Of a DNA stretch of 64,000 bases, positions 36,431-50,421 are shown one piece after another. The first letter of the stretch is position 1. Every line of letters starts with the position of its first letter. Location of the stretch: contig CP147779.1 in assembly GCA_037308085.1 (NCBI GenBank), positions 1,856,001-1,920,000 of the forward strand, in the 5' to 3' direction. The notes below the pieces were generated by a model. The model had not been told where the DNA came from, did not search any database, and worked only from the letters and a program-made list of their open reading frames with translations. A program made the translations under genes and the position numbers. Origin of the DNA: Promethearchaeati archaeon SRVP18_Atabeyarchaeia-1. GTDB taxonomy: Archaea; Asgardarchaeota; Atabeyarchaeia; Atabeyarchaeales; Atabeyarchaeaceae.

Positions 36431-37396
36431 TTGCGTATCAGGGCTCTTGGGCTGCATTTGACGGATCGCTGTAATGCTCGCTGCGAGCACTGCGCCTTTC
36501 ACTGTGGACCTCAAGGCAAAGGCGTGATGGCTTTAGGTGAGGCAAAAAAGTACCTTCGACAAGCCACGGAAGAAGGGGCAGACATGCTCTGCATAAGTGG
36601 CGGCGAGCCACTTCTCTTTCTCAGCACTGTAACCAGCATCGCTCGAGAAGCAAGAAGGCTCCGAATGCAGAGTATCTGGGTTTTCACTAATGCTCACTGG
36701 GCGGCGGATCGTGAATCGACGAGGAGAATACTGGTACGGCTCAAGAATGCCGGTGTCGGCAGACTCTGCCTAGGCGCTGATGGATTCCACCGGCCATTCG
36801 TTGCGACCGAGAGAGTTCGTTCGGCCATGCTTGTTGCTGCGGACTTGGGTTTGGAGCTTACTCTAGATACCCGCATCATGGGCGTGACGCTCCAGGAAGA
36901 CAACCAGATCAACAAGTCAACCGTGGAGATCCTTCGTGAACTCGGAGATTTGAGAAACATCGAAACGTGGCGCGGCCCCCCGCTCTACGTCGGCCGCGCA
37001 GCGGAGGTCCTGCCCCAGAAAATGCAGAGAGAGCCAACCTTTGTTGATGGGGCATGCATGGGCCCATGGGCGGGTGGAAGCTGGGTAAACCCAGTGGGCG
37101 TTGACATCGACTCGCATGGGGAAGTCACGCTATGCCCTGGCATAAGCATTGGCAACGCAAGAACGCAAACACTGAGCAAGATCCTGTCTGACTACAAGCC
37201 ATCGCAGCACCGCATAATCCGTGAGCTCACGGCAGGCGGACCTAAAGGCTTGTGGCGCCTGGCTTCCGACCTGGGCTACAGGCACCAAGGAGGTTACTTG
37301 AGTGCATGTCACTTGTGCTACGACGTGCGGAAGTTCATCCGATCAGATTATCCAGCGGAGCTGGCACCTATTTCCTGCTACGAAGAGCTTTGTTAA
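36431..37396 (+). CDS. Radical SAM protein, YydG/EpeE-like with auxiliary cluster
   Basis: CNARCEHC, SGGEP, TNAHWA, ADGFH, VGRA, ACHLCY. Confidence 0.85.
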   Translation: MRIRALGLHLTDRCNARCEHCAFHCGPQGKGVMALGEAKKYLRQATEEGADMLCISGGEPLLFLSTVTSIAREARRLRMQSIWVFTNAHWAADRESTRRILVRLKNAGVGRLCLGADGFHRPFVATERVRSAMLVAADLGLELTLDTRIMGVTLQEDNQINKSTVEILRELGDLRNIETWRGPPLYVGRAAEVLPQKMQREPTFVDGACMGPWAGGSWVNPVGVDIDSHGEVTLCPGISIGNARTQTLSKILSDYKPSQHRIIRELTAGGPKGLWRLASDLGYRHQGGYLSACHLCYDVRKFIRSDYPAELAPISCYEELC

Positions 37397-37490
37397 GGGT
37401 TTTCCAGTCGAGCTCTTGAGCGCCACATTGTGGACATTCTTCGGACGCTATTTGAATTCTCTGCCTGCATCTTGCGCATTCTTTGGTTTT

Positions 37491-37754
37491 CTACCATTTC
37501 GGTATCACCGAGTTTCGCTCGATATCTTTTCGCCGTTCTGTGATCCTGTCATAGACATCCGAGTCTTCATCTGCGCGGAGTTCGACCGTTAGGAACTTGG
37601 GACATGTGTAAACGTCCATGGGTGCGGCTTCCTCCTCCCCCCAGCGCCATATTGGAAGGTCTATCCTGAAGGGAAACCAACCCATATGCAGCATCTCCGT
37701 GCTGCAGATTCGACAGTTCGGAGAAGACAGCCTATCAGGATATTCTCCCATCAA
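37491..37754 (-). CDS. Small zinc-ribbon protein, possibly decayed
   Basis: CRIC...M...YTCPKF.TVEL; last Cys replaced. Confidence 0.5.
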   Translation of the reverse strand: MMGEYPDRLSSPNCRICSTEMLHMGWFPFRIDLPIWRWGEEEAAPMDVYTCPKFLTVELRADEDSDVYDRITERRKDIERNSVIPKW

Positions 37755-37857
37755 ATCATCAGCCGCTTCTAGAAACGTAGAAATTCATGGAAGTCAACCA
37801 CGCTTCTATTCGGGGCGTTGGCAGCTTGTTCGGTCCCGCCTGCTCCCCCGGCCTTAG

Positions 37858-38706
37858 GCTCTCTGGAGAGCAAAGCTCAATAGAGCAAACCTAAGCAAAG
37901 CCATACTCCGGAGAGCAGATCTTGGCGAGGCAATTCTCTTGGGAACAAAGCTAAGCGGAGCAAACCTGAGCCAGGCAAATCTATCTGGCGCGAATCTAAG
38001 TGAAGCAGATCTCAGCGGAGCAAACCTAAGTGAAGCAAACCTTGAGAAAACGGTGCTAGTTGAGGTGGACCTAAGAAAGGCATCCCTTACGAATTGCCGG
38101 GTTTACGGGATCTCTACATGGAACGTGGATCTGGAGAATGCGACTCAGTTGAATCTGATCATCACCCGTAGCGCTGAGCCCAAGATTACGGTGGACTACC
38201 TCAAGGTTGCGCAATTTGTGTACCTGCTTCTCAACAACAGGGAGATCCGGGAGGTTATTGACACTATCACTTCAAAGGTCGTGCTAATTCTAGGTAACTT
38301 TTCATCAGATCGGAAGGCAATCTTAGATGCGATCCAGGATGAACTACGTAAGCACAACTACTTGCCCATCTTGTTCGACTTCGGGAAACCTGCCAACCGG
38401 GATCTCACCGAAACGATCTCTATTCTCGCACACATGGCGCGATTTGTCATAGCTGATATTACGGATGCCGAGAGTGTTCCCCAGGAGTTGGAGCGCATAG
38501 TCCCAGAGCTACCATCGGTTCCAGTTCAACCGCTGTTGCAGGCCCCAGCCAAGCCGTACGGCATGTTCGAGCACTACCCGCGGTATCCCTGAGTTCTTGA
38601 GATACGTAGGTATGAGAGCCCTGGCAAGTTGCTGGCGTCCCTCCCAGAAAAAGTGATCGCTCCTGCCGAGGCGAAGGCGAAGGAGCTGCAGAAGAGACAG
38701 CAGTGA
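37858..38706 (+). pseudogene. Pentapeptide-repeat protein with a C-terminal alpha/beta domain; N-truncated, with internal TGA at 38590-38592
   Basis: A(N/D)LSxA repeats; VLILGNF...FDF.KP..RDLTET. After TGA the frame continues VLEIRRYE...VIAPAEAKAKEL. Confidence 0.75.
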
Positions 38707-38887
38707 CCGGACAATTCTGCGCCGCCAAAGTCATTGCTCGTGATACAACTGCGGAACTGTGGCAGTGGTTCACTTTCATGGTAGTCCCTTCAACCCCATA
38801 AGGTTTCGCCATCAACGTACCTCTATAGTTGACTTGGGATGCATAGTCTATGAGTAAGCAATTGGCGTGCACGGCAGGTGGGGCGCG

Positions 38888-39061
38888 ATGGTCGTCAACG
38901 AGGAGTGGTGGAGGGGCTTCGAGGACTGCGCCGAGATTGTCATGGGCATCCTCGACGTTGCCCGGGACCTACCGGCCGCCAAGCATAATGTGGATAAGAT
39001 GCTTGCCTTAGTGAAGGAGAAGAAATTCTCGAAGATTAAGGAGGAGCTGGGTCTACTCTGA
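38888..39061 (+). CDS. Small helical protein, GFE[DN]C family copy 1
   Basis: RGFEDCAEIV...VKEKKFSKIKEELGLL; paralog at 41644. Confidence 0.65.
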   Translation: MVVNEEWWRGFEDCAEIVMGILDVARDLPAAKHNVDKMLALVKEKKFSKIKEELGLL

Positions 39062-39072
39062 CGGTTCACACA

Positions 39073-40884
39073 TCATGTATGAGAAGACTTTATCCTGCTT
39101 GCCATCTCGTTGCCGATAGTCTCTTCACGTGCCTTCAGAAATTCGTCGTAATTATTGTTCTTCATAGCATCGTAAGCTCTCTCTTCAATTAAGTGCGTTT
39201 TGAGAACAATCTTCACTTTTTCCTCCGAGCCCAGTTTTTGTTTCATGAGATCTATGTATTTGGATGGTTTCTTGTTTTGTATGATGCTATTGTTTGTTGA
39301 TTCTTGAATCAAAGTTCTGTTCAGTATAGAGTTTTCTTTGGTGAGGGTGATTCCTGATTTCTTTGGAAATAGATGATGATCGTTCAATTTGACAAGCTCG
39401 ATTGACTGTCCATTATAGAAGTCCAGCGCCCCTTTTAGGGCTATCAAATTGAGTATCGCCTTGTATATGGCACCTTTCGAGGTGTCTCTCAAATTTATCT
39501 CTCTTATTCGGCTTTCAGCTTCCTTGACTACTTCAGGCACTCTTAAGTTGTCTCCAAACCAGTCCCTAACTTGGTCAAAATCCTGTTTTATGGCTGTATC
39601 ACTTGCTCCTGCATATCTTTCTGTGAATATAGAACTCCAATACCAAGTGTCCAACTTCTTGAAGTCATTAGGAGCCTTGCAATGTTCAAGTATTGCCGCC
39701 AATGTTGCTACTACAGGCCTGTATGGTAATAGGTTTGGTCTGATAACGCCATATCCAGTCTGGGTGTTTTGTAGTCTTCTCAAAGAATGATTGAGCAAAC
39801 TACAAGATGAGTTCCAGTTGTCCTTGTCAATTTTGAACACTTTTGAGTTCACTAGAACTTTCTTCTTCACTTCTAGAGGATTGGGTTTTTGACGCAAAGC
39901 CATAATTTGAAGTATGATTTTTGGGTATTCCTCATCATCTTCTTCGGAGAACTTATTCACTTCACTTTCTGTGTCATCGAAATACTCTTTCCACCAATCT
40001 CTGAGGTTTATTTTCTGTTTGAAGAATACGGCGGTGGCAAGAGCAAACACCGAAAGCTCCACGCCTGTTCTATTAATCCTCTCGAATATCTCTGCGACCT
40101 CATAGAACTGTTTGTTTTCAAGAGTCAACGATGGGATTTTGAAACCAAACCAATGATTGAAAATATTTCTTATGGTCGCTTTTCTCTCTTTGATCTCGCC
40201 CCAAGGTTTGCTCTTCTTAGAGATGTAGTCTCCAAAATCCTCCAACCAGCTCTCTAGTTCGGAACGTGCTCCTAAGTTGGCAAAGGGTATCCGTCCATTT
40301 TCGTAGCAATATTGCTTGAATTCCTTCTTCATTAACAAATTCCCAAAATTGCCAGCCCAGTCTAGCAAGTCCTTGAAAGAGTATTTCTTAGCCCCCGACC
40401 CCATGTCTACTTCCATGTTTTTTGTTCTGTCATTTTCCGATATTGATTCGATCGAATCTTCCCAATCTTTTTGGGCGAGTCTTTCGTTGACCTTTACAAA
40501 ATATCGGATAGGGTAAGCTGCCCCTTTAGGTTCAACCTTTGGGGGACTGTAGAGAGCGTAGAACAAGGCAGTCAATCTTTGCTGTCCATCGAGCACCGCT
40601 CTTTCAACATTTTTCTCCTCTGGTTCTGATGGTAACTTTGTGTTGACTTTTTCTACTCCCTCAAAATACCGAACTCCAAAATCAAGGGTTTCAGCACGCC
40701 TTAAGAAAAGAAGGGTGCCGACGAAATAGCCGTTTAGAACTGAAACTAATAGACTTTTTATGTCAGGATTTGCCCACACAAAACTCCTTTGAAATTCCGG
40801 AAGGACACACTTTCCTTCACAGATTTCTCTAATTGGTCCTAGAGCTTCCTCAAGTTTCGGATAGGGTTCAGCCATAACACTCAC
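39073..40884 (-). CDS. DUF262 plus C-terminal HNH-like protein (GmrSD-like type IV restriction)
   Basis: LPEFQRSFVW, LDGQQRLT, IFERINRTG, DHHLFPK...N..LN. AT-rich relative to the flanks. Confidence 0.9.
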   Translation of the reverse strand: MSVMAEPYPKLEEALGPIREICEGKCVLPEFQRSFVWANPDIKSLLVSVLNGYFVGTLLFLRRAETLDFGVRYFEGVEKVNTKLPSEPEEKNVERAVLDGQQRLTALFYALYSPPKVEPKGAAYPIRYFVKVNERLAQKDWEDSIESISENDRTKNMEVDMGSGAKKYSFKDLLDWAGNFGNLLMKKEFKQYCYENGRIPFANLGARSELESWLEDFGDYISKKSKPWGEIKERKATIRNIFNHWFGFKIPSLTLENKQFYEVAEIFERINRTGVELSVFALATAVFFKQKINLRDWWKEYFDDTESEVNKFSEEDDEEYPKIILQIMALRQKPNPLEVKKKVLVNSKVFKIDKDNWNSSCSLLNHSLRRLQNTQTGYGVIRPNLLPYRPVVATLAAILEHCKAPNDFKKLDTWYWSSIFTERYAGASDTAIKQDFDQVRDWFGDNLRVPEVVKEAESRIREINLRDTSKGAIYKAILNLIALKGALDFYNGQSIELVKLNDHHLFPKKSGITLTKENSILNRTLIQESTNNSIIQNKKPSKYIDLMKQKLGSEEKVKIVLKTHLIEERAYDAMKNNNYDEFLKAREETIGNEMASRIKSSHT

Positions 40885-40927
40885 ATCCCATAGAAATCCT
40901 CCCCGCCTCCGAGTCGAACTCTATACC

Positions 40928-40982
40928 TACCTGATCGCTGGGCACGTGATATATTCGTTGCGGAGGCATTGCGATATCCACA
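40928..40982 (-). repeat. 55-bp repeat copy 1, promoter-like, upstream of the DUF262 gene
   Basis: 51/55 identical to 44806-44860; contains ATATAT. Confidence 0.9.
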
Positions 40983-41272
40983 AGTCTCTTTAATCGCGTA
41001 TCATCCCCGACTATGCCATGGCATAAGGAGCGTACCAGAGAAACAGGGGCCTGTGTGGGACTCGAGTTGGAGCGGGTTCCTCGGGGACCTCAGAAAGGAA
41101 GTTGAGCTGTGTTGAATAGAAAGAAAGAGGATTGAGGTGGCTAGCCCACCTTGAGCTTTCCTTTGATCTGGTTCATACTGCCCCTGAGGTGCTTGAGGTT
41201 CTGCCCAATTTCGTCGACATCTCTTGTGACGAATATTGTCTTCATGTAGAGGGCTAAGAGAGACATGTTCAC

Positions 41273-41500
41273 TTAAGTAGGAGCAAAGAACTCGACATAA
41301 CCGCAATTATCGCATTTGTAGGCACGAAGTGATTTTCCTGTCCGAGCTTCAAACTGTACGTCTCGTTCTCCTCGAAGGCCCTCTTCAGTTAGTTCCTCAT
41401 CTTTTGCACTATGCCACCGAACTATGCGATCAAAACCTATTACACCCTCATGCATCGCAAACCCACATTTTGAACAATGCTTGTCTTTTACCATAAACAT
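41273..41500 (-). CDS. Small zinc-ribbon protein
   Basis: CSKCG..M.EG...AYKCDNCGYVEFFA; GAGG RBS. Confidence 0.8.
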   Translation of the reverse strand: MFMVKDKHCSKCGFAMHEGVIGFDRIVRWHSAKDEELTEEGLRGERDVQFEARTGKSLRAYKCDNCGYVEFFAPT

Positions 41501-41643
41501 CCTCTATTTTGACAGGTGATTTCCCCATCAAAATATGTTTCGCATTCGTTGCGAGATTCACACATGGAATTCGGATACCTATTGCGGCTTTGCCCCAAAG
41601 AGAGACCCTCACTTCTGCATAGGACTCTTGCACCTCAAATAAC

Positions 41644-41850
41644 GTGGTTGACCATTCTTGTTCTGTCGTGGATTGGACGGCGAGAGAGGCTTCGGGGTAT
41701 CGGCATGGGTTCGAGAACTGCCTAGGTCTGGTGGAGGACACCATCGGGTCCGTGAAGAGGCTGAAACAGGTGAAGAGCTACCTGCTGACGGTGCGGGCCA
41801 GCATGAAGGAGAAGAACGTCGTCCGGATAAGAGGGGACCTCGGTCTCTGA
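41644..41850 (+). CDS. Small helical protein, GFE[DN]C family copy 2
   Basis: HGFENCLGLV...MKEKNVVRIRGDLGL. Confidence 0.6.
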   Translation: MVDHSCSVVDWTAREASGYRHGFENCLGLVEDTIGSVKRLKQVKSYLLTVRASMKEKNVVRIRGDLGL

Positions 41851-41859
41851 TACCCTGGA

Positions 41860-42963
41860 TTACTTTCCCCAGATTCTCTTTTTGATGGCCGATAGGACCC
41901 CCATCCTCCTATTCGTGTTTGTTACTGCTCTGAGCTGCAATGCTTCCTCAAGCGTCCTTGGTCTTATGAATTTCTTCTTTAGGCCCTCGTAGGGTGGAAA
42001 GGCGCCGTGTGTGCCCAAGACTCTTCTCGCATCGGCTACCATCTCTAGTTGTTCAGGGCTCCAGTGGCGACCAACAAAGCTGTCCTTCTTGAGAGCATAT
42101 CGGCCTTTAACCGGCTGATACCTCATTGGATAGGACACTACACCCCACTCCATCGCCTTCTGGAGACGATGCAGCAAGTCTTCCGGGGTATCATTGAAGT
42201 TGTAGAGGAGATAGACCAGGATGTCTCTCGGCCTCACGCCTGCCTGGATCAGCATTTGTATGCCGTCTTCCACTTCCTGTTCCTGCTTTGGTCGATCGAA
42301 GGCAGTCCTTATCATATAGGTTCTGAGTGATGCGAGAACCTCAGCCTTTTCCGGGGTCATTAGCCTCGTGTCTATTCCCTGGTTGAAGTCGACTGGCAGA
42401 TTCAAACTGCGGATCTCAAGGAGAATCTCCTTCCAGTAGGGGGAGGCCAGCATATTGTTGTCCCAGAGGATGATCTTCTTGTGGTCGGGACAGATGAGAT
42501 CCTTGATCGTCTTCCTGCATTTGAACTCCGGCTCCAGTTTCGGGACTGCGCAGAAGGGGCAGTCGTTGATGCATCCTCTTGAACTGAAAACTATGCTTGC
42601 ATTCCAGTCCGGAACCAGGGAATAGTCAGGTATCATGCCTTCGGCTTGCTCGAAGAGCCCCCTATGGATTGTCGCTCCAGACTTCGCTGCATGCTCCGGC
42701 ATGAGCGTTGCGTATATGCCGCCTAGAATGATTTCAGCCTTCGGATATTGCTGCTGATAGAATCTGACAGCCTCGTGCACTGGCTTCCAGGCGTATGTGA
42801 AGAGACTCGTCACATAGATATTGTCTGGGGTCCACGGCGCAGCGACGCATCCCTTCTGAAAGCAGACCTCATCGCCAAGCATCCTGTGATAAGTGGAGAT
42901 CTTCAGAAGCCCAAGAGGAGGGAACCTAGAATAATAGTTTGGCTGAACCAAGAGGGTGCGCAT
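41860..42963 (-). CDS. Radical SAM protein with an N-terminal B12-binding-like segment
   Basis: FPPLGLLKISTYH, VTSLFT, GGIYA, SRGCINDCPFC, DNN, DFNQGID. Confidence 0.88.
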   Translation of the reverse strand: MRTLLVQPNYYSRFPPLGLLKISTYHRMLGDEVCFQKGCVAAPWTPDNIYVTSLFTYAWKPVHEAVRFYQQQYPKAEIILGGIYATLMPEHAAKSGATIHRGLFEQAEGMIPDYSLVPDWNASIVFSSRGCINDCPFCAVPKLEPEFKCRKTIKDLICPDHKKIILWDNNMLASPYWKEILLEIRSLNLPVDFNQGIDTRLMTPEKAEVLASLRTYMIRTAFDRPKQEQEVEDGIQMLIQAGVRPRDILVYLLYNFNDTPEDLLHRLQKAMEWGVVSYPMRYQPVKGRYALKKDSFVGRHWSPEQLEMVADARRVLGTHGAFPPYEGLKKKFIRPRTLEEALQLRAVTNTNRRMGVLSAIKKRIWGK

Positions 42964-43004
42964 AAAGGGTATATGTCTCCGTGATCTTTATTTGTCTTGC
43001 TTCC

Positions 43005-44768
43005 TCATGGAGGGCATTTCTGTGACAACTCAATCATCCTGTATACCAACCCTACTGTTGCAGAGAACATAGTCATCACATTACATCGCTCAGCTTTGGT
43101 CAGATCTTCGAACCATTTGAAGGAATCGCTTCCCTTATCATGCTTCTGAGCGTTGATGAATAAGTCCTGAAGCGCTTGTATTGTCACACCTAATTCCGGA
43201 TTTCGTCTCGTCTCTTGTGGGTCCGTTGAGGAGCCGCTTATCGTCAATTTTCGAGTCGAATGAGAAATTACTTTTTCCCACCCATATGCGGCTTTGGAGA
43301 GACCAAATATTTCATTAGTGCTCAGACCAGTCTTCTTCTTGAGTAGCTCCACAATCTTATCCAGCATGCTTGTTTCAGGCTGTAGCTTTCCTTCCGGCGT
43401 GAGCTTGTCGAAGTCGCTTCTTACAGGTTTGGGCAAAAGACCTAACATACTCTTCTGCAGCTCCTTTGCTTTGGCTAGATCATCTTCTTCAGGCAGTTTC
43501 TTCTTGATCTCGGCTTCCAGTGTCGCAACTTCCTTAGCAGCTTGTTTGCACTTGTCATCTATGACCTGCTTATGAGGCTGAAGCGCAGGGTCTGTTGCGA
43601 AACTTCTGCCGCTACTCATAGCTTTCTTTGCTTTCTCAAGACATTTCTTGGCTGAATTGGTATTTCCCTTTGCCAAATGGTGCTTTGCCTTCTCGATCGA
43701 TTTCGCCTGGTTCTTATCACTTTGGTACCGATTACTGATCTGGAACTCATCCACGAAACTACCAACCTGCTGGAAGAACGGAGCAACAAGCTCGGTACTC
43801 GGCACAAAGTTGTTCCTTGCTGCATTCTCAACTATCTTCGGAGTAACTATGTGGATCTCTCCATATTGCCATTCACTATGCCCACTTGAGAGGTTCTCTA
43901 TGAAATGTTCATCACCGATAGTGAAACCCTTCTTCTTGAAAAAGATGCCCTTGTTCGGCTCGCCTAGTTCCTTATTCTCCTTGTTTGTCAGAAACCAGCC
44001 GAAGGCCACAATTTCGCCGTTTACCTTGAACTCCTTGGGGACAAGATCATTCACAAGGAATATATCGACATCGTCAGGCGGCCTGGATATCGGGTCGCCT
44101 TCAAACTCAATCACAACTTCAGGTAGCTCAACGTCGTGCTCTTTCAGGTAATCGTTCACCTTGTCGGCAAGCAAGAATTTCTTGTTGAAGGGTGCGGGAA
44201 CAGTTCGAGAAAGGTACTTGATTATCTTCTCTTTCTGGAACATAGATTTATGTGTTGTCAGGATTGAGCAAAGTCTTACAACCGTGAAGTGATCTTTGAC
44301 AGACTCTCCTGAGTCAAGATTTGTTTCCTCGATTTCCCCCGTTGACTCTGATAACACATCGGCTGCCGATCTATTGGTTCCATAACTTTGGCGCAGCTTC
44401 TTGCAATCTATTTCTATTCTCAGTTTCTTCTCATTCTTCTTCTTGGTTGTTATAACGATCTTCTCGCAGACTGGGACGCCGCTCCAGATGCCGATACCTC
44501 TCCACCCAACATTTTCAGGTGGCTTGTACGATAGTCCAACGCTCAAAGCCTCTTTCAGCTTGGCTTTATTCATTCCGCTGCCATCGTCGTGAATGACCAG
44601 ATCAAGTGATTCTGGACTCTTAGTCTCGAAGTAGATCTTCACCTTCTTTGGATCGGCGTCCAGACTGTTCTGGACATATTCCCTCAGACAATTCAGATTA
44701 TCAGAATAGAGGCCTTCTGTGATAGCTTCAAGTAGCTTTGCACCAAAATTGTCAATCTCAAACTTCAC
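43005..44768 (-). CDS. GHKL (Hsp90/MORC-like) ATPase with S5-like and coiled-coil regions
   Basis: REYVQNSLDA, DDGSGM, GWRGIG, ENAARNNF. Confidence 0.88.
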   Translation of the reverse strand: MKFEIDNFGAKLLEAITEGLYSDNLNCLREYVQNSLDADPKKVKIYFETKSPESLDLVIHDDGSGMNKAKLKEALSVGLSYKPPENVGWRGIGIWSGVPVCEKIVITTKKKNEKKLRIEIDCKKLRQSYGTNRSAADVLSESTGEIEETNLDSGESVKDHFTVVRLCSILTTHKSMFQKEKIIKYLSRTVPAPFNKKFLLADKVNDYLKEHDVELPEVVIEFEGDPISRPPDDVDIFLVNDLVPKEFKVNGEIVAFGWFLTNKENKELGEPNKGIFFKKKGFTIGDEHFIENLSSGHSEWQYGEIHIVTPKIVENAARNNFVPSTELVAPFFQQVGSFVDEFQISNRYQSDKNQAKSIEKAKHHLAKGNTNSAKKCLEKAKKAMSSGRSFATDPALQPHKQVIDDKCKQAAKEVATLEAEIKKKLPEEDDLAKAKELQKSMLGLLPKPVRSDFDKLTPEGKLQPETSMLDKIVELLKKKTGLSTNEIFGLSKAAYGWEKVISHSTRKLTISGSSTDPQETRRNPELGVTIQALQDLFINAQKHDKGSDSFKWFEDLTKAERCNVMTMFSATVGLVYRMIELSQKCPP

Positions 44769-44805
44769 TTACTCAATCCCCCTCACTTCCTTGCTGAACT
44801 ATAGT

Positions 44806-44860
44806 TACCTGATCGCTGGGCGCGTGATATATCGGTTGCGGAGGCATTGCGACATCCACA
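44806..44860 (-). repeat. 55-bp repeat copy 2, promoter-like, upstream of the GHKL gene
   Basis: 51/55 identical to 40928-40982. Confidence 0.9.
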
Positions 44861-45136
44861 GGATTTTCGAATCTGAGACCATGCTCGGCTACGACACAGG
44901 GACCCAACTTAGAGTCCTTCAACATCTCAGACTACGCGGATTCTCTTAATGTAGATGACCCTTGCGTAAAGTCCGGCGCTTATGAGATTTGGATAAGTGA
45001 CGTGCTCAACAGGCGCACTTGCCAGTCTGATGGTTTTTCTTCGACTGGATCACCTGGACAAGCCAGAACAAAAAAGAGAGAGGGGGAAGACAGGACTCAC
45101 TAGTCTCCAGCTCATCTTCCCTCTGCGATATGTTCA

Positions 45137-45667
45137 CTAGTAGGGGCCTGGAACGAAGAAAGACAATACTGGGAAGTCCCAGTAGTGAACGCCACTGCCG
45201 TCACTGTAAACCCATGATATTACTGCCTTGTAGTTGCCGCCGCCACCACCAGGTCCGTAGGTATATGAGAAGCTTTTGTCGGCTGGTCCATCAAGCCCAA
45301 CGTACTCATTCTGGTTTGTAGCAGGATTCCACATCCAATTGTAGTCCCTGGCAAGCTTGGAGTAGATCACTTGATTGTAGTCCTTCTGGATGACGCCTAA
45401 TATCATTGATCTCAATTTCCACTGTGGGGAATTGCCATCGTAGTTGAGGATTATGTGCCACTCGAACTTCACCGTGTAGTAGTAGACGGGCCCTGATTGC
45501 CAGACGTTAACGGTAATTCTACCCCATGCGTAGTCATCGTTGAGCCAATGGCCCTGTTCCTGAACCAAGGTAGTTGCTGATGCCTGAGTTACTGCGCCCG
45601 CTGAAAAGGTTAGCAAGAAGATCGATAGAACGACAAAGACCATGATGCTCTTACTCATTCTATTCAT
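45137..45667 (-). CDS. Secreted Trp/Tyr-rich beta protein, function unknown
   Basis: GGAGG RBS; signal peptide MNRMSKSIMVFVVLSIFLLTFSAGA. Confidence 0.7.
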   Translation of the reverse strand: MNRMSKSIMVFVVLSIFLLTFSAGAVTQASATTLVQEQGHWLNDDYAWGRITVNVWQSGPVYYYTVKFEWHIILNYDGNSPQWKLRSMILGVIQKDYNQVIYSKLARDYNWMWNPATNQNEYVGLDGPADKSFSYTYGPGGGGGNYKAVISWVYSDGSGVHYWDFPVLSFFVPGPY

Positions 45668-46068
45668 ACTTGTCCTCCACTCAACTGCTTTTCTGTTTCG
45701 TTCTCTTTCTGCCCCTCTTCTGGGGCTAGGCGGTGACCGCCTCCAAAGCATTCAGCTTTGGTTTTGCCCCAATGCATAGGCGGAGCCATCCCCTCCCGGC
45801 ACGGGTCCACCCCTACAATTCTATCCCCTGACGTATAATATGGCGTTTTTCAGGCTGTTATACTTTACTGTTATACCGCTAAACCGCAAGCCTTGAGTAA
45901 GGACTATTCCGTAGACGACAGCAAGGGAGAAAGAAAGAACTTGATAGGAGGTGACAAGAAGTCCTTAATTCGGCAACGCCTGCGCGTTGACCGACAAATT
46001 TATTTAAGATAACAGTGGATATCTTAGCACGCTCTACTATGATAGGGGGTGTAATAGAGGGGTTGAAA

Positions 46069-46281
46069 ATGCCAGTTGAATCACGTGAAATACGCATCGT
46101 CATACCGCCTGAGATAAATGAACTCTTTGCCAAGCAGCCACACATGATCTTCAAAACACATCCTATTCCTGGCCTGTGGCCAGTTACTCTAGAGATTCTC
46201 AAAAACATCGAGGCCCTGAAAAAGCTAGCAGCCAGCAAGGAATTCAACGAGAAGTACGACATCGTAATAATACCGAAGTGA
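46069..46281 (+). CDS. 70-aa protein, candidate radical SAM substrate or partner
   Basis: TTTATTTAAG TATA and GAGGGG RBS upstream; hairpin follows the stop. Confidence 0.7.
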   Translation: MPVESREIRIVIPPEINELFAKQPHMIFKTHPIPGLWPVTLEILKNIEALKKLAASKEFNEKYDIVIIPK

Positions 46282-46360
46282 GTAGATTGACAAATGGGTG
46301 CAATTGTGGCACCCATTCTTTTGTTGTTTACTCTGCAAACTGAGTTAACAGGGTGGATAC

Positions 46361-47413
46361 ATGTCATCCGAACTCGAAGCACCGTTCTTAAAGAACATCG
46401 GTTTCATGCTCACCTACAAATGTACGATATCGTGTCCACATTGCATTGTTGAGGCTGGACCTCACCGTAAGGAAGAAATGGATCTTGATATGGCTCTGGA
46501 CTGGGTCAAGCAGGCAAGTACCTTTAGAAATGGACATATTGTCGGTCTAGCGTTGACTGGGGGCGAGCCGTTCTATGACCTGGAAAAACTCGCGAAGATC
46601 TCCGAATTTGCCAATAGTCTAGGGTTTGTTGTTTCGGTCGTAACTAACGGCTTTTGGGCAACAACAAGGGATGTCGCGCAAAAGACCATCGCAAGACTTC
46701 CAGCAATTCAGATGATTTCACTTAGCACAGATACTTACCACAGAAGGGCGATTCCACCTCAAAATGTCAAGAATGGCATTTGGGCGGCCAAGCAGCTTGG
46801 GCGGCTGTATAACATTGCGGTCTGTACAGACAACGAAGAGAACCCAGAGTTCAAGGAGATTATTAATGACTTGCGTGCGAATGGGGAAGCCGAAAACACT
46901 AGGACCGCCATAACATACCCTGTAGGCAGAGCGCAGAGGTATGAGGGTCATCTTAATTTTGAGATTGAGGCTGAACCTACGGTCGGGGCGTGTACCATGG
47001 CGAGTTCACCAGTGGTTTTTCCAGATGGGAAAGTAAATGCTTGCATAGGACCAGTGCTGACCTTGCCCTCAGCTCACCCACTCTTCCTCGGGAACTTGCG
47101 AATAGATCGGTTGAATGATATATTAGATCGGGCTGAAATGAATCTTTTCCTACAAACAATACGTGTATGGGGACCACAGAAATTGCAGTCGCTTTTGAAA
47201 GAGCATGGTTTAGGCGATTTGCTCCCCCGAGAGTACATTAAAGACTGCATATGCGATTGCTGCTACAAATTGCTCTCTGACCCGCGGATCGTTGACGCTC
47301 TTAAGAGCATTCTGCAGGATGAGAAGATGGTGAGGATCATAGCTTATGCGAGGGTGTACTATCTTAAAGAGACATTTATGGCGGAACGACTTGACTTGGT
47401 GACAAAGGGATAG
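46361..47413 (+). CDS. YydG/EpeE-like radical SAM enzyme
   Basis: CTISCPHC, TGGEP, TNGFWA, STDTYH, VGRA, C...PDG...C, ICDCC. Confidence 0.88.
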   Translation: MSSELEAPFLKNIGFMLTYKCTISCPHCIVEAGPHRKEEMDLDMALDWVKQASTFRNGHIVGLALTGGEPFYDLEKLAKISEFANSLGFVVSVVTNGFWATTRDVAQKTIARLPAIQMISLSTDTYHRRAIPPQNVKNGIWAAKQLGRLYNIAVCTDNEENPEFKEIINDLRANGEAENTRTAITYPVGRAQRYEGHLNFEIEAEPTVGACTMASSPVVFPDGKVNACIGPVLTLPSAHPLFLGNLRIDRLNDILDRAEMNLFLQTIRVWGPQKLQSLLKEHGLGDLLPREYIKDCICDCCYKLLSDPRIVDALKSILQDEKMVRIIAYARVYYLKETFMAERLDLVTKG

Positions 47414-47498
47414 TCTTTGGTTAACCCGAGCTAATGGGCTTCTATGTGTGTTTTGGCTGCCGAGCGCTCGCCTAGCCTGTGGCACAGAAAGTTCGTGG

Positions 47499-47529
47499 AG
47501 AGGTTTTCTCTTTTCCGGTCATCCCAAGC
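47499..47529. repeat. 31-bp perfect direct repeat, copy 1
   Basis: agaggttttctcttttccggtcatcccaagc, identical to 48739-48769. Confidence 0.92.
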
Positions 47530-47548
47530 TCGCCCGCTTATGAACACT

Positions 47549-48391
47549 CTAGCTCCCGGTGGCCTTGTCCTTGAGTTTCGCTATCAATACTGTGAACCAT
47601 GGAATGACGCAGATGGCGAACGGAATGAGGCACAGTATGACAATGCCAACATTGTATAACAGATTGGTCGAAAAATCGGTGAAGATGGCCTCCACAATAT
47701 GAAGAAGGTAGGCTGTCCACAGAAAACCTACGAAGAAGACATTAGCTCTAAAGATGTGCCTTGTCCATCTCATGAGTCGACTCTTCTCGTAAGGTTGTTT
47801 TAGTGTGAGGTGGCAAGAGAGCCCCAATACAAGTTCATATGCGAATATGTGTGGATAGCTTTTCTCATTTAACAGTTGGACACGTCTATAGAAGAGGAAC
47901 CAGGAAAGAACAAACACCAAAGAGGCTGTCATCAGGATATAGGAAGTCAAATCTGTAATCCTATTGATGACGGTATACATGAAGAAGAGAAAGGAGACTG
48001 GAACGAAAAGTGAACTCATCGTGAACATCTGATGACTTCTTTCATCAATCTGTTGGCTGAGAAACTCATGATTCCTCCAATACTTCTTGCATAGAAGACT
48101 GCGGTCCGGTAGCCTTGCCATCCGGGCGGCGAATTTGCGGTAGAGCGATTCCACATTTTGCTTCTCCTGTTTCCTTAGCGACTTCAGGTTTTCTGCTGCT
48201 ATCTCTGCGAATACCCATTCCATCCCTCTCAGGTTTTTGGCTTTCTCTTCTTTTGCCTCCTTGATCAGCGTTGAGATTTCGGCGGGCGCGTCGGCTACCT
48301 TCCTGGTCCTTCGATTCATGCCTCTTCCTCTTTGCCACGTTCGGATTCCCTTTTCAGAGTCATTGTCTTCCTTGCTTGTTCCCGTCGTCAT
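47549..48391 (-). CDS. Membrane protein with about four TMs and a charged N-terminus
   Basis: Two pairs of hydrophobic helices; no family recognised. Confidence 0.65.
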   Translation of the reverse strand: MTTGTSKEDNDSEKGIRTWQRGRGMNRRTRKVADAPAEISTLIKEAKEEKAKNLRGMEWVFAEIAAENLKSLRKQEKQNVESLYRKFAARMARLPDRSLLCKKYWRNHEFLSQQIDERSHQMFTMSSLFVPVSFLFFMYTVINRITDLTSYILMTASLVFVLSWFLFYRRVQLLNEKSYPHIFAYELVLGLSCHLTLKQPYEKSRLMRWTRHIFRANVFFVGFLWTAYLLHIVEAIFTDFSTNLLYNVGIVILCLIPFAICVIPWFTVLIAKLKDKATGS

Positions 48392-48450
48392 GATCCCCCC
48401 ACATGTGAGTCAGATTTTTCATTCGACCTCTCCTTCTCGACAGGGATCCT

Positions 48451-48639
48451 CTAGATTTCGGTCAGCCTCTCAGCGGTTCCTTTCCACGTCTGCCTCATTT
48501 TCTCGATCCTGTCGAAGCATTCGTTAACGCGCCCGCTCACGAGGGTCAGCTCGTACTGCAGCTTCTGAACCTGCTTCTTGACGAGTCCAAGGTCAAGTTC
48601 CAGACCGTGTACTTTGTCTTTCTCATTCATCCCCCTCAC
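48451..48639 (-). CDS. Small coiled-coil protein
   Basis: Heptad pattern; GGAGG RBS. Confidence 0.5.
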   Translation of the reverse strand: MRGMNEKDKVHGLELDLGLVKKQVQKLQYELTLVSGRVNECFDRIEKMRQTWKGTAERLTEI

Positions 48640-48738
48640 CCTCCTAAGTAGATATCAGTCTGTTGCCAGTGTCTTTCCTATCCCAGCTAACTTCCCAGCG
48701 GAGGGTGCTTGGTCTCCAATCCCCCCTCTTCCCTGAAT

Positions 48739-48769
48739 AGAGGTTTTCTCTTTTCCGGTCATCCCAAGC
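48739..48769. repeat. 31-bp perfect direct repeat, copy 2, bracketed by a 12-bp inverted repeat (48701-48712 / 48764-48775)
   Basis: gagggtgcttgg...ccaagcaccctc; the right arm overlaps the last 6 bp of the repeat. Confidence 0.92.
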
Positions 48770-48817
48770 ACCCTCATTCGCACAATTCAGTTAGATGAAT
48801 CACTCTTTTGCATCAGT

Positions 48818-50170
48818 CTACCTTCTGGAGGCGTACAGGTATTCACGCCTCATCTGCTGCCAAGAGGCGCCCGCACTCACGGCAAACGGTTGGCCGCATA
48901 GGCGCAGGCCACGGTGGAGTATCGCCAAGCTGGCGAGCCTATCCCGGTTGTAGTCCACGCTACAGTTCCTGCATCTGCTTATTGCCCAAGCTGGGTGCTT
49001 CAAGGTTCCACCGCAGACGGGGCACTTCGATGAGGTCCCCCTCGGGCTAACGTAGAAAGTCCTCTAACGGCTCTTATACTCAACCATTCTTTGAAACTCT
49101 CTATATGGCTAGCGGTTAAGGTACGTCCTAAACCTCCTGCTGCTTGCCAGGCCCTTCCTTCCTCTTCCCTGCCTTATCCCCTTCAGGTCCTCGAAGACGA
49201 AGGATGTGCTAGGGTTCTTCCGGACGATCTGGGTTGACAGCTTGTGGAGCGCGTCCTTAACCCTGTCTCTCTGTCTGCCCCTTGTCGCCTCAAGCTTCCT
49301 CTCCCTCTTCCCGGGGTTCCTAACGTGCAGCCGGATGAGCCTCCGCCTCCTCGAGAAGTCGTTCTGAACTTGCACTACCCTGTTAAGGGAGTTGGTGTGG
49401 GGTGACTCCAGCCCTATGCTGCCGCTGCTGAACGCTGAGGAGTCTGCGCTGTGGAAGTTGAGGTCCAAACCAGCCAGCCTCGCAGCGAGGGGCTTCCCGC
49501 CACCACGCCCTACGGCGAAGGTGACGCAGAGTTTTCTGTCCGTCAACAGGATCTCGCATGCCTCCCCTGCAGCGCTGTACTCGCTCCACTTCTTGTGGCC
49601 TGGAATGAAAGTGATATATTCATAGGTGAAAGGCTTCAGGGTGACCCTGACGGTCACGCTTCCGTCGGGGTTCGGTGAGAGGCGGAAGAGCTCGGAGTCG
49701 ATCCTCATGGCGAGCCTCCCATGCCTCTTCCTGTACGACCGTAGGAGCGCCACGGCCGTTCTGCAGAGGGGGTTGACGTGGTGCCTCGCATACTCGCAGC
49801 GGGTGTCGAACCAAGGCTTCACCCTCCTCCTCAGCGCAACCGGGTTGGGGATCAAGAGGCGACCGCTTATCTTGGCTGAGGCGTATGCCTGGGCGAGAGA
49901 CGTCGCTAGTGCGTCCTTCATGTCTTCGAGGTATTTGAGTATGCTGCTGGATGGCTGGTACTTTACTGCGATGGTTCTCTTTTCGCCTTCTCTGGTCTTC
50001 CACCTATGATGCTTCCCTGGATCTGCTGCTGCCACTGCGGTGCCGATAGTCCCGCCTCCTTGACTGCTTGTTGGAGCTTCCTGCTCGCCTCGTAATTTCT
50101 CGGTCTTTGTGGCTTCTCGCTGGGCTCCTGCCTGCTCTGTCCCCGCCCTGCATGGCCTCGGCGCAGGCAC
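48818..50170 (-). pseudogene. tnpB: TnpB pseudogene with two in-frame TAG codons (49109-49111, 49064-49066)
   Basis: GLDLN, FEDL; LNR*PYREFQRMVEYKSR*RTFYVSPRGTSSKCPVCG...CRNC...NRDRLA in one frame. Start uncertain. Confidence 0.85.
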
Positions 50171-50421
50171 CCAAGCGACCTAAGGGTGCTTCCCTGGAAG
50201 AGCATAGCTGTTCCACATTCGTCTACATGTAATTGCGTCTATTTATACAGTCCATCCGAACGGTTCGTTTCCCTCCCAAGATGATGTTAGGTGATGAACG
50301 TTGAAGCCAATATCGACGTCTCGCCGGGTAGTAAGATGCCTAGCTTTTTTGCGTGGCAAGGCTAGCTGAACGGAGTCGAAAACGAAGCCTATAAATAATT
50401 CTCCCAGCCGTAGTACCGCCC

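What the first reader, a model, noticed from the sequence alone, without database searches (positions are those of the whole stretch)
37491..44860. Tandem 'fixed chassis, swappable cargo' defence cassettes
Seen: the same layout occurs twice. A zinc-ribbon gene (-; 37491 and 41273) precedes a small GFE[DN]C...KEK...LGL gene (+; 38888 and 41644). That gene converges within about 10 bp on unrelated cargo (-; GmrSD-like, or GHKL plus rSAM), which is preceded by the same 55-bp sequence (51/55 identical). The repeat holds an ATATAT box, and similarity ends about 20-25 nt downstream of it, where a transcription start would fall. A pentapeptide pseudogene interrupts module 1. Inference: a cargo-capture hotspot in which one promoter and one terminal mini-gene bracket exchangeable defence genes, integron- or satellite-hotspot-like. 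No integrase is visible in the window.
Basis: partly seen in the sequence, partly recalled or inferred. Interest (0 to 1): 0.8.

Follow-up and report, generated by a model that had tools for sequence, protein, structure and literature searches.

The report
Reused promoter heading unrelated archaeal defence genes
In a wetland Asgard archaeon, two neighbouring and unrelated defence units each start with the same ~60-base promoter-like element and end against a paralogous mini-gene, inside an 11-kb piece of DNA that landed in a dead transposon; this looks like promoter reuse and leftovers of a mobile-element module rather than a dedicated gene-capture machine.

Summary
The genome is Ca. Atabeyarchaeum deiterrae group 1 (2,808,651 bp; size match in PMC11291895).

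**Confirmed.** The repeat (56/62 identical), the mini-gene pair, and their 9-11 bp tail-to-tail joints with unrelated minus-strand cargo.

**Not confirmed.** A twice-repeated zinc-ribbon "chassis". The first zinc-ribbon gene is a truncated native gene lying outside a 10.96-kb block. That block (37869-48823) split an IS605-type TnpB element and is flanked by a 7-bp duplication, TCTGGAG.

**The repeat.**
- It has four copies here and one in the sister species, each before a different gene.
- One copy heads a conserved KaiC/V4R operon, whose counterpart in the other genus keeps a diverged version.
- It has no shared fold and no codon periodicity.
- Its ATATAT box sits where TATA-like hexamers peak in this genome.

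**The mini-gene.** It belongs to an unnamed family of ~55-aa helical hairpins. In 8 of 12 contexts its convergent partner is a small winged-helix regulator.

**Reading.** Repeat and mini-gene were not found together outside this block. No recombinase lies in the window. This fits promoter reuse plus relics of a mobile-element module; a recombination-driven cargo hotspot remains a minority reading.

**Limits.** The scan made a similar "promoter-bearing repeat" reading on a Thermoplasmata genome.

The parts
36431..37396 (+). Native radical SAM/SPASM gene A (weakly YydG-like). It lies outside the inserted block and is a paralog of 46361-47413.
   Evidence: Pfam Radical_SAM and Fer4_12. Weak NCBIfam rSAM_yydG match. 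28% identical to gene B, E 2.6e-21. An ortholog is present in the sister species on contig C183.
37491..37754 (-). zn1: truncated native zinc-ribbon gene that has lost its second CxxC. It is not part of the inserted block.
   Evidence: 53% identity, E 2e-22, to the 144-aa double zinc-ribbon protein of the sister species. No Pfam match. Not significantly like zn2.
37763..37868 (-). Detached 3'-terminal piece (~105 nt) of an IS200/IS605-type TnpB element, ending in the 7-mer TCTGGAG (37862-37868).
   Evidence: 80-84% identical to the ends of four intact copies in this genome and three in the sister species. It abuts the rest of the element in those copies.
37869..48823 (.). 10.96-kb inserted block carrying both modules, flanked by the duplicated 7-mer TCTGGAG (37862-37868 and 48824-48830).
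   Evidence: Left and right IS pieces are contiguous in intact copies and overlap by the 7-mer. The region is missing from the syntenic loci of both relatives.
37869..38592 (+). Pentapeptide-repeat ORF, open from the block's left edge with no upstream start (first start codon is TTG at 37939). It is a 5'-truncated gene.
   Evidence: Pfam Pentapeptide E 3.9e-17. The repeat frame runs to the joint, as read from the sequence.
38867..39061 (+). mini1: a 57-64 aa two-helix protein, member of an unnamed family.
   Evidence: Called as a 57-aa gene in public assemblies. Profile search found 46 relatives. AlphaFold2 pLDDT 92 with helices 5-24 and 28-53.
39073..40884 (-). Cargo 1: GmrSD-like (DUF262-type) candidate type IV restriction enzyme, GC 0.41.
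   Evidence: Pfam GmrSD_N E 1e-23. PADLOC PDC-M55C and HEC-05. GC. Found in only 2 of 100 other Asgard genomes.
40895..41138 (-). REP1: promoter-like element. Its core is 40921-40982 and holds a near-palindrome TTGTG-N5-CGCAA (one mismatch from a perfect inverted repeat), two CGCAA boxes 11 bp apart, and ATATAT 64 nt before the GTG start. The long form is shared with copy 3.
41273..41500 (-). zn2: DUF6487 zinc-ribbon gene lying between REP1 and mini2.
   Evidence: Pfam DUF6487, 32.8 bits against a cut-off of 24.
41644..41850 (+). mini2: paralog of mini1. Its N-terminal VVDWTAREA matches the MEVDFTTA motif of its closest relatives.
41860..42963 (-). Cargo 2b: radical SAM-like protein with a weak B12-binding-domain match, GC 0.52.
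   Evidence: Weak Pfam matches. Homologs in 5 of 100 Asgard genomes, none next to a GHKL gene detected with this query.
43005..44768 (-). Cargo 2a: GHKL (HATPase_c_3, MORC/MutL-like) ATPase, GC 0.45.
   Evidence: Pfam E 3.5e-16. Weak NCBIfam BbrUII/HgiDII and MzaB matches. No homolog at E <= 1e-10 in 100 other Asgard genomes.
44775..44896 (-). REP2: second copy of the promoter-like element. Its core is 44799-44860, with ATATAT 58 nt before the GTG start.
48824..50275 (-). Remainder of the split TnpB element. The gene is also frameshifted (ORFs 49109-50170 and 48818-49003).
   Evidence: 89% identical to the intact copy at genome 1555763-1557243. ORFs. The sister-species TnpB is 463 aa.

Best explanation
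The two 'cassettes' are real but are not the product of a dedicated capture system.

**Setting (shown).** They lie inside a 10.96-kb block of accessory DNA that inserted into an already resident IS605-type TnpB element. That element sits within a 14-kb island specific to this species.

**The repeat (inferred function).** It is an archaeal promoter with an operator.
- A TATA box sits 58-64 nt before the start codon, with a BRE-like CGCAAC next to it.
- Further upstream are a second CGCAA box one helical turn away and a near-palindrome TTGTG-N5-CRCAA.
- Downstream is a leader of about 35-40 nt with a Shine-Dalgarno-like site.
- This promoter type is native to the lineage. It heads a conserved KaiC/V4R operon and survives in diverged form in the other genus.
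- Near-identical copies have been reused in front of at least four unrelated accessory genes. This probably puts them under one regulator.

**The mini-gene (shown family, inferred history).** It is a helical-hairpin protein whose gene normally sits tail to tail with a small winged-helix regulator on virus- or plasmid-like DNA. Here defence genes sit where that regulator usually is. In the sister species a truncated regulator of this family still lies downstream of a repeat copy. So the modules are best read as relics of a promoter -> regulator <- mini-gene unit, remodelled by duplication and ordinary recombination.

**What is shown and what is inferred.** Sequence relationships, the insertion and the distributions are shown. 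Promoter activity, co-regulation and the replacement history are inferred.
For: **Repeat copies**
- The repeat is real and has four copies in this genome plus one in the congener. Each precedes a different gene: GmrSD-like, GHKL plus radical SAM, a 417-aa membrane protein, a small membrane protein, and a 194-aa/V4R/KaiC operon.
- It was found in none of 39 other Asgard genomes, IMG/VR, JGI metagenomes or GTDB representatives.

**Promoter reading**
- Mismatches show no codon periodicity: 23/21/21.
- There is no shared fold; z-scores are -2.2 vs +1.2 and -0.8 vs +1.3.
- No Rfam family or tRNA was found.
- ATATAT starts at -70 and -64. This falls in the genome-wide peak of TATA-like hexamers at -75 to -65, and Shine-Dalgarno-like motifs peak at -20 to -11.
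- The upstream region of the orthologous operon in the other genus keeps TC.CAAT...GCAACG.TTTTATC.

**Age or constraint**
- The repeat is 90% identical between modules, against 52.5% nucleotide and 32% amino-acid identity for the mini-genes.
- It is 91% identical between species whose orthologous genes are 71-84% identical.

**Insertion**
- The block splits an IS with a 7-bp duplication.
- The relatives lack it.

**Mini-gene family**
- 46 relatives exist, predicted as a helical hairpin.
- The convergent partner is a homologous winged-helix protein in 8 of 12 contexts.
- The family is sporadic: 3 of 400 Asgard genomes.
- A truncated winged-helix gene of this family lies downstream of repeat copy 4 (E 3e-10).

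**Precedent**
- Promoter reuse before unrelated genes is documented in prokaryotes (PMC3575422).
Against: - There is no transcript or transcription-start data, so promoter function is inferred from geometry alone.
- A loose search for the double-box-plus-TATA motif is not enriched over shuffled sequence (8 hits vs 5-12). No wider regulon is shown and no regulator is identified.
- No relic of a winged-helix gene remains in either window module. The proposed ancestral unit therefore rests on one truncated gene in the sister species and on distant metagenomic contexts.
- The mini-gene profile finds nothing next to that truncated gene.
- The sharp GC steps at both cargo borders, and the two adjacent units with the same flanks, are also what a recombination hotspot would produce.
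- How the promoter is copied is unknown.
Confidence: 0.55

Rival explanations
1. Active cargo-exchange hotspot. The repeat and the mini-gene serve as homology arms, so that incoming DNA from related mobile elements carrying the same arms swaps one defence gene for another. This would resemble PeSL cassettes of T4-type phages or defence hotspots of phages and satellites, with no dedicated recombinase.
For: - Two adjacent units share both flanks but hold unrelated cargo.
- Homology stops at the cargo start region on one side and exactly at the mini-gene stop codon on the other.
- Cargo GC is 0.41-0.45 against 0.52-0.58 for the flanks.
- Cargo genes are sporadic in Asgard genomes.
- The repeat is far better conserved than the mini-genes, as expected if it is repeatedly homogenised.
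- The mini-gene family lives on virus- or plasmid-like contigs.
- PeSL-mediated shuffling is a documented precedent (PMC2839356).
Against: - Repeat and mini-gene co-occur only in this one block.
- Repeat copies 3 and 5 have no mini-gene, and other mini-genes face one conserved winged-helix gene.
- No alternative cargo was seen: four assemblies are identical, and neither relative has the block.
- mini1 and mini2 share only 52.5% nucleotide identity, which is too little to serve as a shared homology arm now.
Confidence: 0.2
2. One old tandem duplication of a single [mini-gene, gene, promoter] unit, followed by divergence. The repeat's similarity is kept by gene conversion or strong selection, and the cargo difference arose by unrelated later insertions. 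Nothing is reused or mobile.
For: - The two units are adjacent, in the same orientation, and 3,878 bp apart.
- The mini-genes are clearly old paralogs.
Against: - The repeat also occurs 240 kb and 426 kb away and in another species, before unrelated genes. Its spread is therefore not explained by one local duplication.
- Copies 1 and 3 share about 240 nt (77% identical over the 192 nt aligned by BLAST), while copies 1 and 2 share 62 nt at 90%. This nested pattern needs several events.
Confidence: 0.12
3. The repeat is a site-specific recombination site (att-, dif- or attC-like), and the block is an integron-like array served by a recombinase encoded elsewhere.
For: - Direct repeats bracket a gene unit.
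- The genome has four tyrosine recombinases, one of them 7 kb from repeat copy 3.
- Another stretch of this genome was read as a dif-like site array (earlier finding e1-5499652, not checked here).
Against: - No recombinase lies in the window.
- The copies share no folded structure.
- The inverted repeat is short (5+5 nt) and sits in an operator-like position beside a TATA box at the usual distance from the start codon.
- One copy is the vertically inherited upstream region of a conserved operon.
- The block's own joints use a different 7-mer.
Confidence: 0.05
4. The repeat is mainly a transcribed RNA element (a leader, riboswitch-like sensor or small RNA) shared by the operons.
For: - About 27 nt downstream of the TATA box are nearly identical, and weaker similarity continues into the leader.
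Against: - Most of the conserved core lies upstream of the expected transcription start.
- No Rfam match was found.
- There is no shared or unusually stable fold on either strand.
Confidence: 0.05

Closest known systems
Promoter reuse / putative mobile promoters in prokaryotes (Nijveen, Matus-Garcia and van Passel 2012, PMC3575422)
   Same: Highly similar upstream regions stand before non-homologous genes within a genome and between related genomes, with no recognisable transposon around them. The effect is to rewire regulation of the downstream gene.
   Different: This case is in an Asgard archaeon, with a TATA/BRE-type promoter. One copy is the native promoter of a conserved operon, and the others head horizontally acquired defence-type genes. 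Two copies are additionally paired with a paralogous convergent mini-gene.
PeSL (promoter-early stem-loop) mobile regulatory cassettes of T4-type phages (Arbiol et al. 2010, PMC2839356; Comeau et al. 2014, PMC4122927)
   Same: A short repeated regulatory module flanks non-essential, unrelated genes in a variable region. Direct copies a few kb apart could recombine to delete, swap or circularise the gene between them.
   Different: PeSLs combine a sigma-70 promoter with a terminator stem-loop, occur in many copies per phage, and their recombination products (indels, mini-circles) were demonstrated. Here there is no conserved stem-loop, only 4-5 copies, a cellular chromosome, and no recombination product seen.
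Integron cassette arrays and CALINs, including archaeal ones (Ghaly et al. 2022, PMC9668308; paper not read here, cited from earlier finding e1-5476186 and my own knowledge)
   Same: Unrelated accessory genes stand in a row, separated by copies of one repeat.
   Different: Integron cassettes are promoterless, end in a folded attC site and are moved by IntI. Here each unit has its own promoter at its 5' end, the repeat does not fold, and no integrase is nearby.
Defence hotspots of P2-like phages and P4-like satellites (Rousset et al. 2022; from my own knowledge, not checked here)
   Same: Conserved flanking genes bracket exchangeable anti-phage systems.
   Different: Those hotspots are defined by many related elements with the same core flanks and different cargo. 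Here only two units in one genome exist, and relatives of the mini-gene flank one conserved regulator gene instead of variable cargo.
GmrSD-family type IV restriction enzymes (Pfam GmrSD_N / DUF262)
   Same: Cargo 1 has the N-terminal DUF262-type domain (E 1e-23) and matches PADLOC candidate defence models.
   Different: No C-terminal DUF1524/HNH nuclease domain was detected by Pfam, and its activity is untested.

Membership tests
Integron / CALIN cassette array | An IntI-type tyrosine recombinase next to the array (integron); absent in CALINs | tested here: not met
   PF00589 search of the whole genome gives four hits, none within the window. The nearest is about 95 kb from the window.
Integron / CALIN cassette array | attC sites: imperfect inverted repeats that fold into a conserved bulged hairpin on one strand, at the 3' end of each cassette | tested here: not met
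   Both strands of both copies were folded. No shared structure was found; z-scores are -2.2/+1.2 and -0.8/+1.3. The repeat lies 5' of the genes.
Integron / CALIN cassette array | Cassettes mostly promoterless, expressed from a common Pc promoter | tested here: not met
   Each unit carries its own TATA-box element 58-64 nt before its start codon. This is inferred from sequence; there is no transcript data.
Reused / mobile promoter (PMC3575422) | Highly similar upstream regions before non-homologous genes | tested here: met
   Five copies stand before five unrelated genes. Core identity is about 87-92% among four of them; the fifth (KaiC/V4R operon) is more diverged.
Reused / mobile promoter (PMC3575422) | The element actually drives transcription | not testable with these tools
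Only the position relative to start codons supports it.
PeSL-type mobile regulatory cassette | Promoter coupled to a terminator stem-loop in one short module | tested here: not met
   No conserved stem-loop was found. Only a T-rich tract at the far edge of the long form shared by copies 1 and 3.
PeSL-type mobile regulatory cassette | Recombination between copies produces indels, replacements or mini-circles | not testable with these tools
   No reads could be examined. Four public assemblies are identical over the region.
Phage/satellite-type defence hotspot | The same flanking genes bracket different cargo across many related elements | tested here: not met
   Of 12 mini-gene contexts, 8 face the same winged-helix family. 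Repeat and mini-gene co-occur only in this block.
IS200/IS605-family TnpB element (the split element around the block) | A TnpB gene with a C-terminal zinc ribbon, in multiple near-identical copies with a conserved 3' end | tested here: met
   The sister-species copy is 463 aa with a CPVCGG...CRKCG motif. A public gene call on a related metagenomic contig carries MJ0013/Cas12f1-like_TNB. At least six copies lie in this genome at 72-89% identity.
GmrSD type IV restriction enzyme | N-terminal DUF262 (GmrSD_N) domain | tested here: met
   PF03235, E 9.9e-24, 85 bits against a cut-off of 33.2.
GmrSD type IV restriction enzyme | C-terminal DUF1524/HNH-type nuclease domain | tested here: inconclusive
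   No Pfam match beyond residue 287. The C-terminal half matches only PADLOC candidate model PDC-M55C.
DUF6487 zinc-ribbon proteins | Match to PF20097 above its cut-off | tested here: met
   Met for zn2 (41273-41500): 32.8 bits against a cut-off of 24. Not met for zn1 (37491-37754), which has no match at E <= 0.1.

The most novel reading that the evidence does not exclude
An Asgard archaeon and its mobile elements may use a recombinase-free way of capturing and exchanging defence genes. A portable promoter/operator module at the 5' side and a conserved convergent mini-gene at the 3' side would act as homology arms. A foreign gene that lands between them would be expressed at once, placed under a host regulator, and swappable. 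This would be an archaeal counterpart of PeSL shuffling or phage defence hotspots.
Probability: 0.17. Interest if true: 0.7.

Novelty: new variant of a known kind. Interest (0 to 1): 0.45.

Why it matters
**If the reading holds**
- It gives a concrete case, in the archaeal lineage closest to eukaryotes, of how newly acquired defence genes get expressed. They are placed behind a copy of a resident promoter/operator, which may tie them to a host regulatory circuit (a KaiC/V4R operon).

**New material for other work**
- An unnamed, widespread family of ~55-aa helical-hairpin proteins is defined. Its gene is almost always tail to tail with a small winged-helix regulator on virus- or plasmid-like archaeal DNA. 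This looks like a regulatory pair worth testing.
- The exact limits of an 11-kb accessory block in a published complete genome are set.

**Practical use**
- The repeat is a candidate native promoter for future genetic tools in these uncultured archaea.

**Caveat**
- The stronger claim of a gene-capture mechanism would matter more, but it is not supported by the present data.

Tried and rejected
- **Strain variants.** Four Logan contigs carrying mini1 are 100% identical to the window. They give no information on cargo exchange.
- **First mini-gene searches.** The two-sequence profile found nothing in the word-indexed 5.8-billion-protein search and nothing credible in 400 Asgard genomes. Only the exhaustive HMMER search found the family.
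- **Family and fold searches for the mini-gene.** Pfam and PHROGs gave nothing consistent. Foldseek against PDB and BFVD gave no match below E 1, as expected for a bare helical hairpin.
- **Repeat in public collections.** The only hits were chance matches in coding DNA of bacteria and the sister-species contig already known.
- **Coding and RNA readings of the repeat.** Coding was rejected because mismatches show no periodicity. tRNA or Rfam RNA readings were rejected.
- **A wider regulon.** A loose double-box-plus-TATA pattern is not enriched over shuffles. A site before NurA-HerA (genome 1982014) is only E 4.3.
- **A mini-gene relic next to the truncated winged-helix gene in the sister species.** The 42-aa ORF holds WYRLHGFLSEC, but the family profile does not score it.
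- **Published element list.** Table S1 of PMC11529989 (coordinates of the 14 integrated elements) is not held. I could not tell whether the 10.96-kb block is one of them.
- **Sigma-70 promoter scan.** Not used, because the organism is an archaeon.

Full report
**Organism and setting.** The window is bases 1,856,001-1,920,000 of a single 2,808,651-bp contig. The 16S gene matches the archaeal model over 2.4 kb. The genome length equals that reported for the complete genome of Ca. Atabeyarchaeum deiterrae group 1, a wetland-soil Asgard archaeon (PMC11291895). PMC11529989 reports 14 integrated mobile elements in this genome, but its coordinate table is not held.

**Check of the observation: repeat, mini-genes and cargo.**
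- The repeat is real. 40921-40982 and 44799-44860 are 56/62 identical, with genome-wide BLAST E 1e-15.
- On the strand of the downstream genes it reads TTGTGGATATCGCAATGCCTCCGCAACGAATATATCACGTGCCCAGCGATCAGGTA. About 35 further bases follow, with a GGAGG/GAGGGGG site, and then the GTG start.
- The mini-genes (38867-39061 and 41644-41850) align without gaps at 31-32% identity. Each is the other's best non-self hit in the genome.
- Each mini-gene ends 11 or 9 nt from the stop codon of a minus-strand gene.
- Cargo 1 has a GmrSD_N domain. Cargo 2 is a GHKL ATPase followed by a weak radical SAM/B12-domain protein.

**Check of the observation: the zinc-ribbon 'chassis' does not hold.**
- zn1 and zn2 are not significantly alike, and only zn2 reaches DUF6487.
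- zn1 is the truncated ortholog (53% identity, E 2e-22) of one of four tandem zinc-ribbon genes. In the sister species (G001, MAG LC30) these follow the ortholog of the radical SAM/SPASM gene 36431-37396. zn1 is therefore a native gene.

- In the other genus (G002, complete genome), the counterparts of window 36223 and 50412 are about 730 bp apart.
- In G001 the radical SAM/SPASM gene and zinc-ribbon array run straight into the gene of window 50422.
- In this genome an IS605-type TnpB element lies after zn1, and it is split. Its last ~105 nt are at 37763-37868 and the rest is at 48824-50275.
- In intact copies here and in G001 the two pieces are contiguous. In the window both joints carry TCTGGAG, at 37862-37868 and 48824-48830.
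- Hence 37869-48823 (10.96 kb) is an insertion with a 7-bp duplication.
- Its left edge cuts a pentapeptide-repeat gene, so the block does not look like a tidy transposon.
- zn1 and mini1 lie on opposite sides of this joint.

**What the repeat is: copies and distribution.**
- A profile search finds only three strong copies in the genome plus a diverged fourth. A sequence-only covariance model finds four here, one in G001 and none in G002 or 38 other Asgard genomes.
- Pattern scans of IMG/VR, JGI metagenomes and GTDB representatives add nothing.
- Copy 3 (genome 1655402-1655462) precedes a 417-aa membrane protein. It lies in a region with DpdB-like and HNH genes and a tyrosine recombinase 7 kb away.
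- Copy 4 (G001) precedes a small membrane protein.
- Copy 5 (genome 2322992-2323055) precedes an operon of a 194-aa protein, three V4R-domain proteins and a KaiC-like ATPase.
- Copies 1 and 3 share about 240 nt (77% over the 192 nt aligned by BLAST), up to the start-codon region. Copies 1 and 2 share 62 nt at 90%.

**What the repeat is: sequence properties.**
- Mismatches show no codon periodicity.
- The copies have no common fold.
- Rfam and tRNA scans are empty.
- The ATATAT box starts at -70 and -64 from the start codons. This is inside the genome-wide peak of TATA-like hexamers at -75 to -65 before long ORFs.
- The core holds a near-palindrome TTGTG-N5-CRCAA, which is perfect in copy 5. 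It also holds two CGCAA boxes 11 bp apart, the second abutting the TATA box where a BRE would lie.
- The operon behind copy 5 is conserved in G002. Its upstream region there keeps TC.CAAT...GCAACG.TTTTATC.

**What the repeat is: inference.** I infer that this is a native promoter/operator type of the lineage. Near-identical copies of it were placed before accessory genes. Between species the core is 91% identical, while orthologous genes are 71-84% identical. So it is either strongly constrained or recently copied.

**What the mini-gene is.**
- The exhaustive profile search of 1.84 billion representatives gave 46 hits at E <= 0.001, nearly all 50-80 aa.
- They share Y.RG(F/W)(E/D)DC...KE(K/R)K...(I/L)R.ELG.
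- AlphaFold2 on the family alignment gives a confident two-helix hairpin (pLDDT 92).
- No Pfam, PHROG or fold match was found.
- Only 3 of 400 Asgard genomes carry the family.
- In 12 contexts examined, the downstream gene is convergent in 11, usually overlapping or within a few bases.
- In 8 of them it is one homologous family of 64-102-aa winged-helix proteins (PadR/HxlR/ArsR-like).
- The other partners are a CPBP protease, the GmrSD-like gene, and the radical SAM plus GHKL pair. One context has no convergent partner and lies beside a TnpB fragment.
- Several contigs look viral or plasmid-like, with STIV B116-like, RHH, N6/N4 methylase and many small ORFs.
- In G001, the gene string behind repeat copy 4 ends in a truncated member of this same winged-helix family (E 3e-10). 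No mini-gene is detectable there.

**Synthesis.**
- The tail-to-tail habit of the mini-gene is a family trait, and its usual partner is a regulator, not variable cargo.
- The repeat is a reused promoter.
- The only place where both bracket unrelated genes is this one inserted block.
- The cargo looks foreign: GC is 0.41 and 0.45 against 0.52-0.58 for the repeat and mini-genes, and cargo genes occur in 0 to 5 of 100 Asgard genomes.
- The simplest history is a mobile-element-type unit, promoter -> winged-helix regulator <- mini-gene. It would have been duplicated or acquired twice, with the regulator displaced by defence genes.
- That history is inferred. A homology-driven exchange hotspot of the PeSL kind (PMC2839356) would leave the same picture and cannot be excluded without reads.
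- Integron membership fails on recombinase, folded site and promoterless cassettes.

**Limits.**
- Only two genomes of the genus exist.
- No regulator was identified, and a crude motif search shows no wider regulon.

**Verdict.** The finding is a new archaeal variant of promoter reuse (PMC3575422), plus an undescribed small-protein/regulator gene pair. It is of moderate interest.

Noticed in passing
window 47499-47529 and 48739-48769: Perfect 31-bp direct repeats bracket a 1.24-kb segment with a 280-aa membrane protein and a 62-aa coiled-coil ORF, just inside the right end of the 10.96-kb block. A third, 88%-identical copy of the surrounding 69 nt lies at genome 1711308-1711376. Two public assemblies break exactly at the first copy. 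PMC11529989 mentions integrated elements as small as 1.3 kb in this genome.
   Followed up: partly
L041 (G001 contig C183) 1429-4230; window 36431-37754: In the sister species, a YydG-like radical SAM/SPASM gene is followed by four tandem paralogs of a 125-156-aa double zinc-ribbon protein. In this genome only one truncated copy (zn1) remains. A second radical SAM/SPASM paralog (46361-47413) and a DUF6487 ribbon (zn2) lie inside the inserted block. This may be a peptide- or protein-modification system.
   Followed up: partly
L079:8001-8260 (JGI Ga0436470_0001057) and five further contigs: The closest relative of mini2 carries an in-frame stop (…LLTVRASI*EKNVVRIREDLGL) that is identical in six contigs from different samples. 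It is either a conserved pseudogene or a recoded stop. It sits tail to tail with a CPBP (Rce1-like) protease gene near a TnpB gene.
   Followed up: no
genome 2318001-2326000 (L060) and G002:C1:1591000-1594500 (L064): An operon of an unknown 194-aa protein, three V4R-domain proteins and a KaiC-like ATPase is conserved between the two Atabeyarchaeia genera. It is headed by the native version of the repeat's promoter type.
   Followed up: partly
genome 1982014-1982048 (L061:3014-3048): A weak look-alike of the repeat core (GGAATATCGCAAATACCCCGCAAAGTATAAAATC; E 4.3 only) lies directly before a NurA-HerA gene pair.
   Followed up: partly
genome 1555763-1557342, 750745-752045, 1735532-1736823, 1176820-1178123, 1995542-1996745: At least five further copies of the same TnpB element (72-89% identical) lie in this genome. 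The copy at 1555763 sits beside a tyrosine recombinase gene (1554621-1555175).
   Followed up: no
L001:6303-7250 (genome 1654303-1655250): About 1 kb without any ORF of 60 aa or more lies upstream of repeat copy 3, in a region with DpdB-like, HNH and other defence-type genes. Its nature is unknown.
   Followed up: no
genome 448464-450889 (L002): The 16S rRNA gene spans 2.4 kb against a 1.48-kb model, so it holds large insertions (introns).
   Followed up: no
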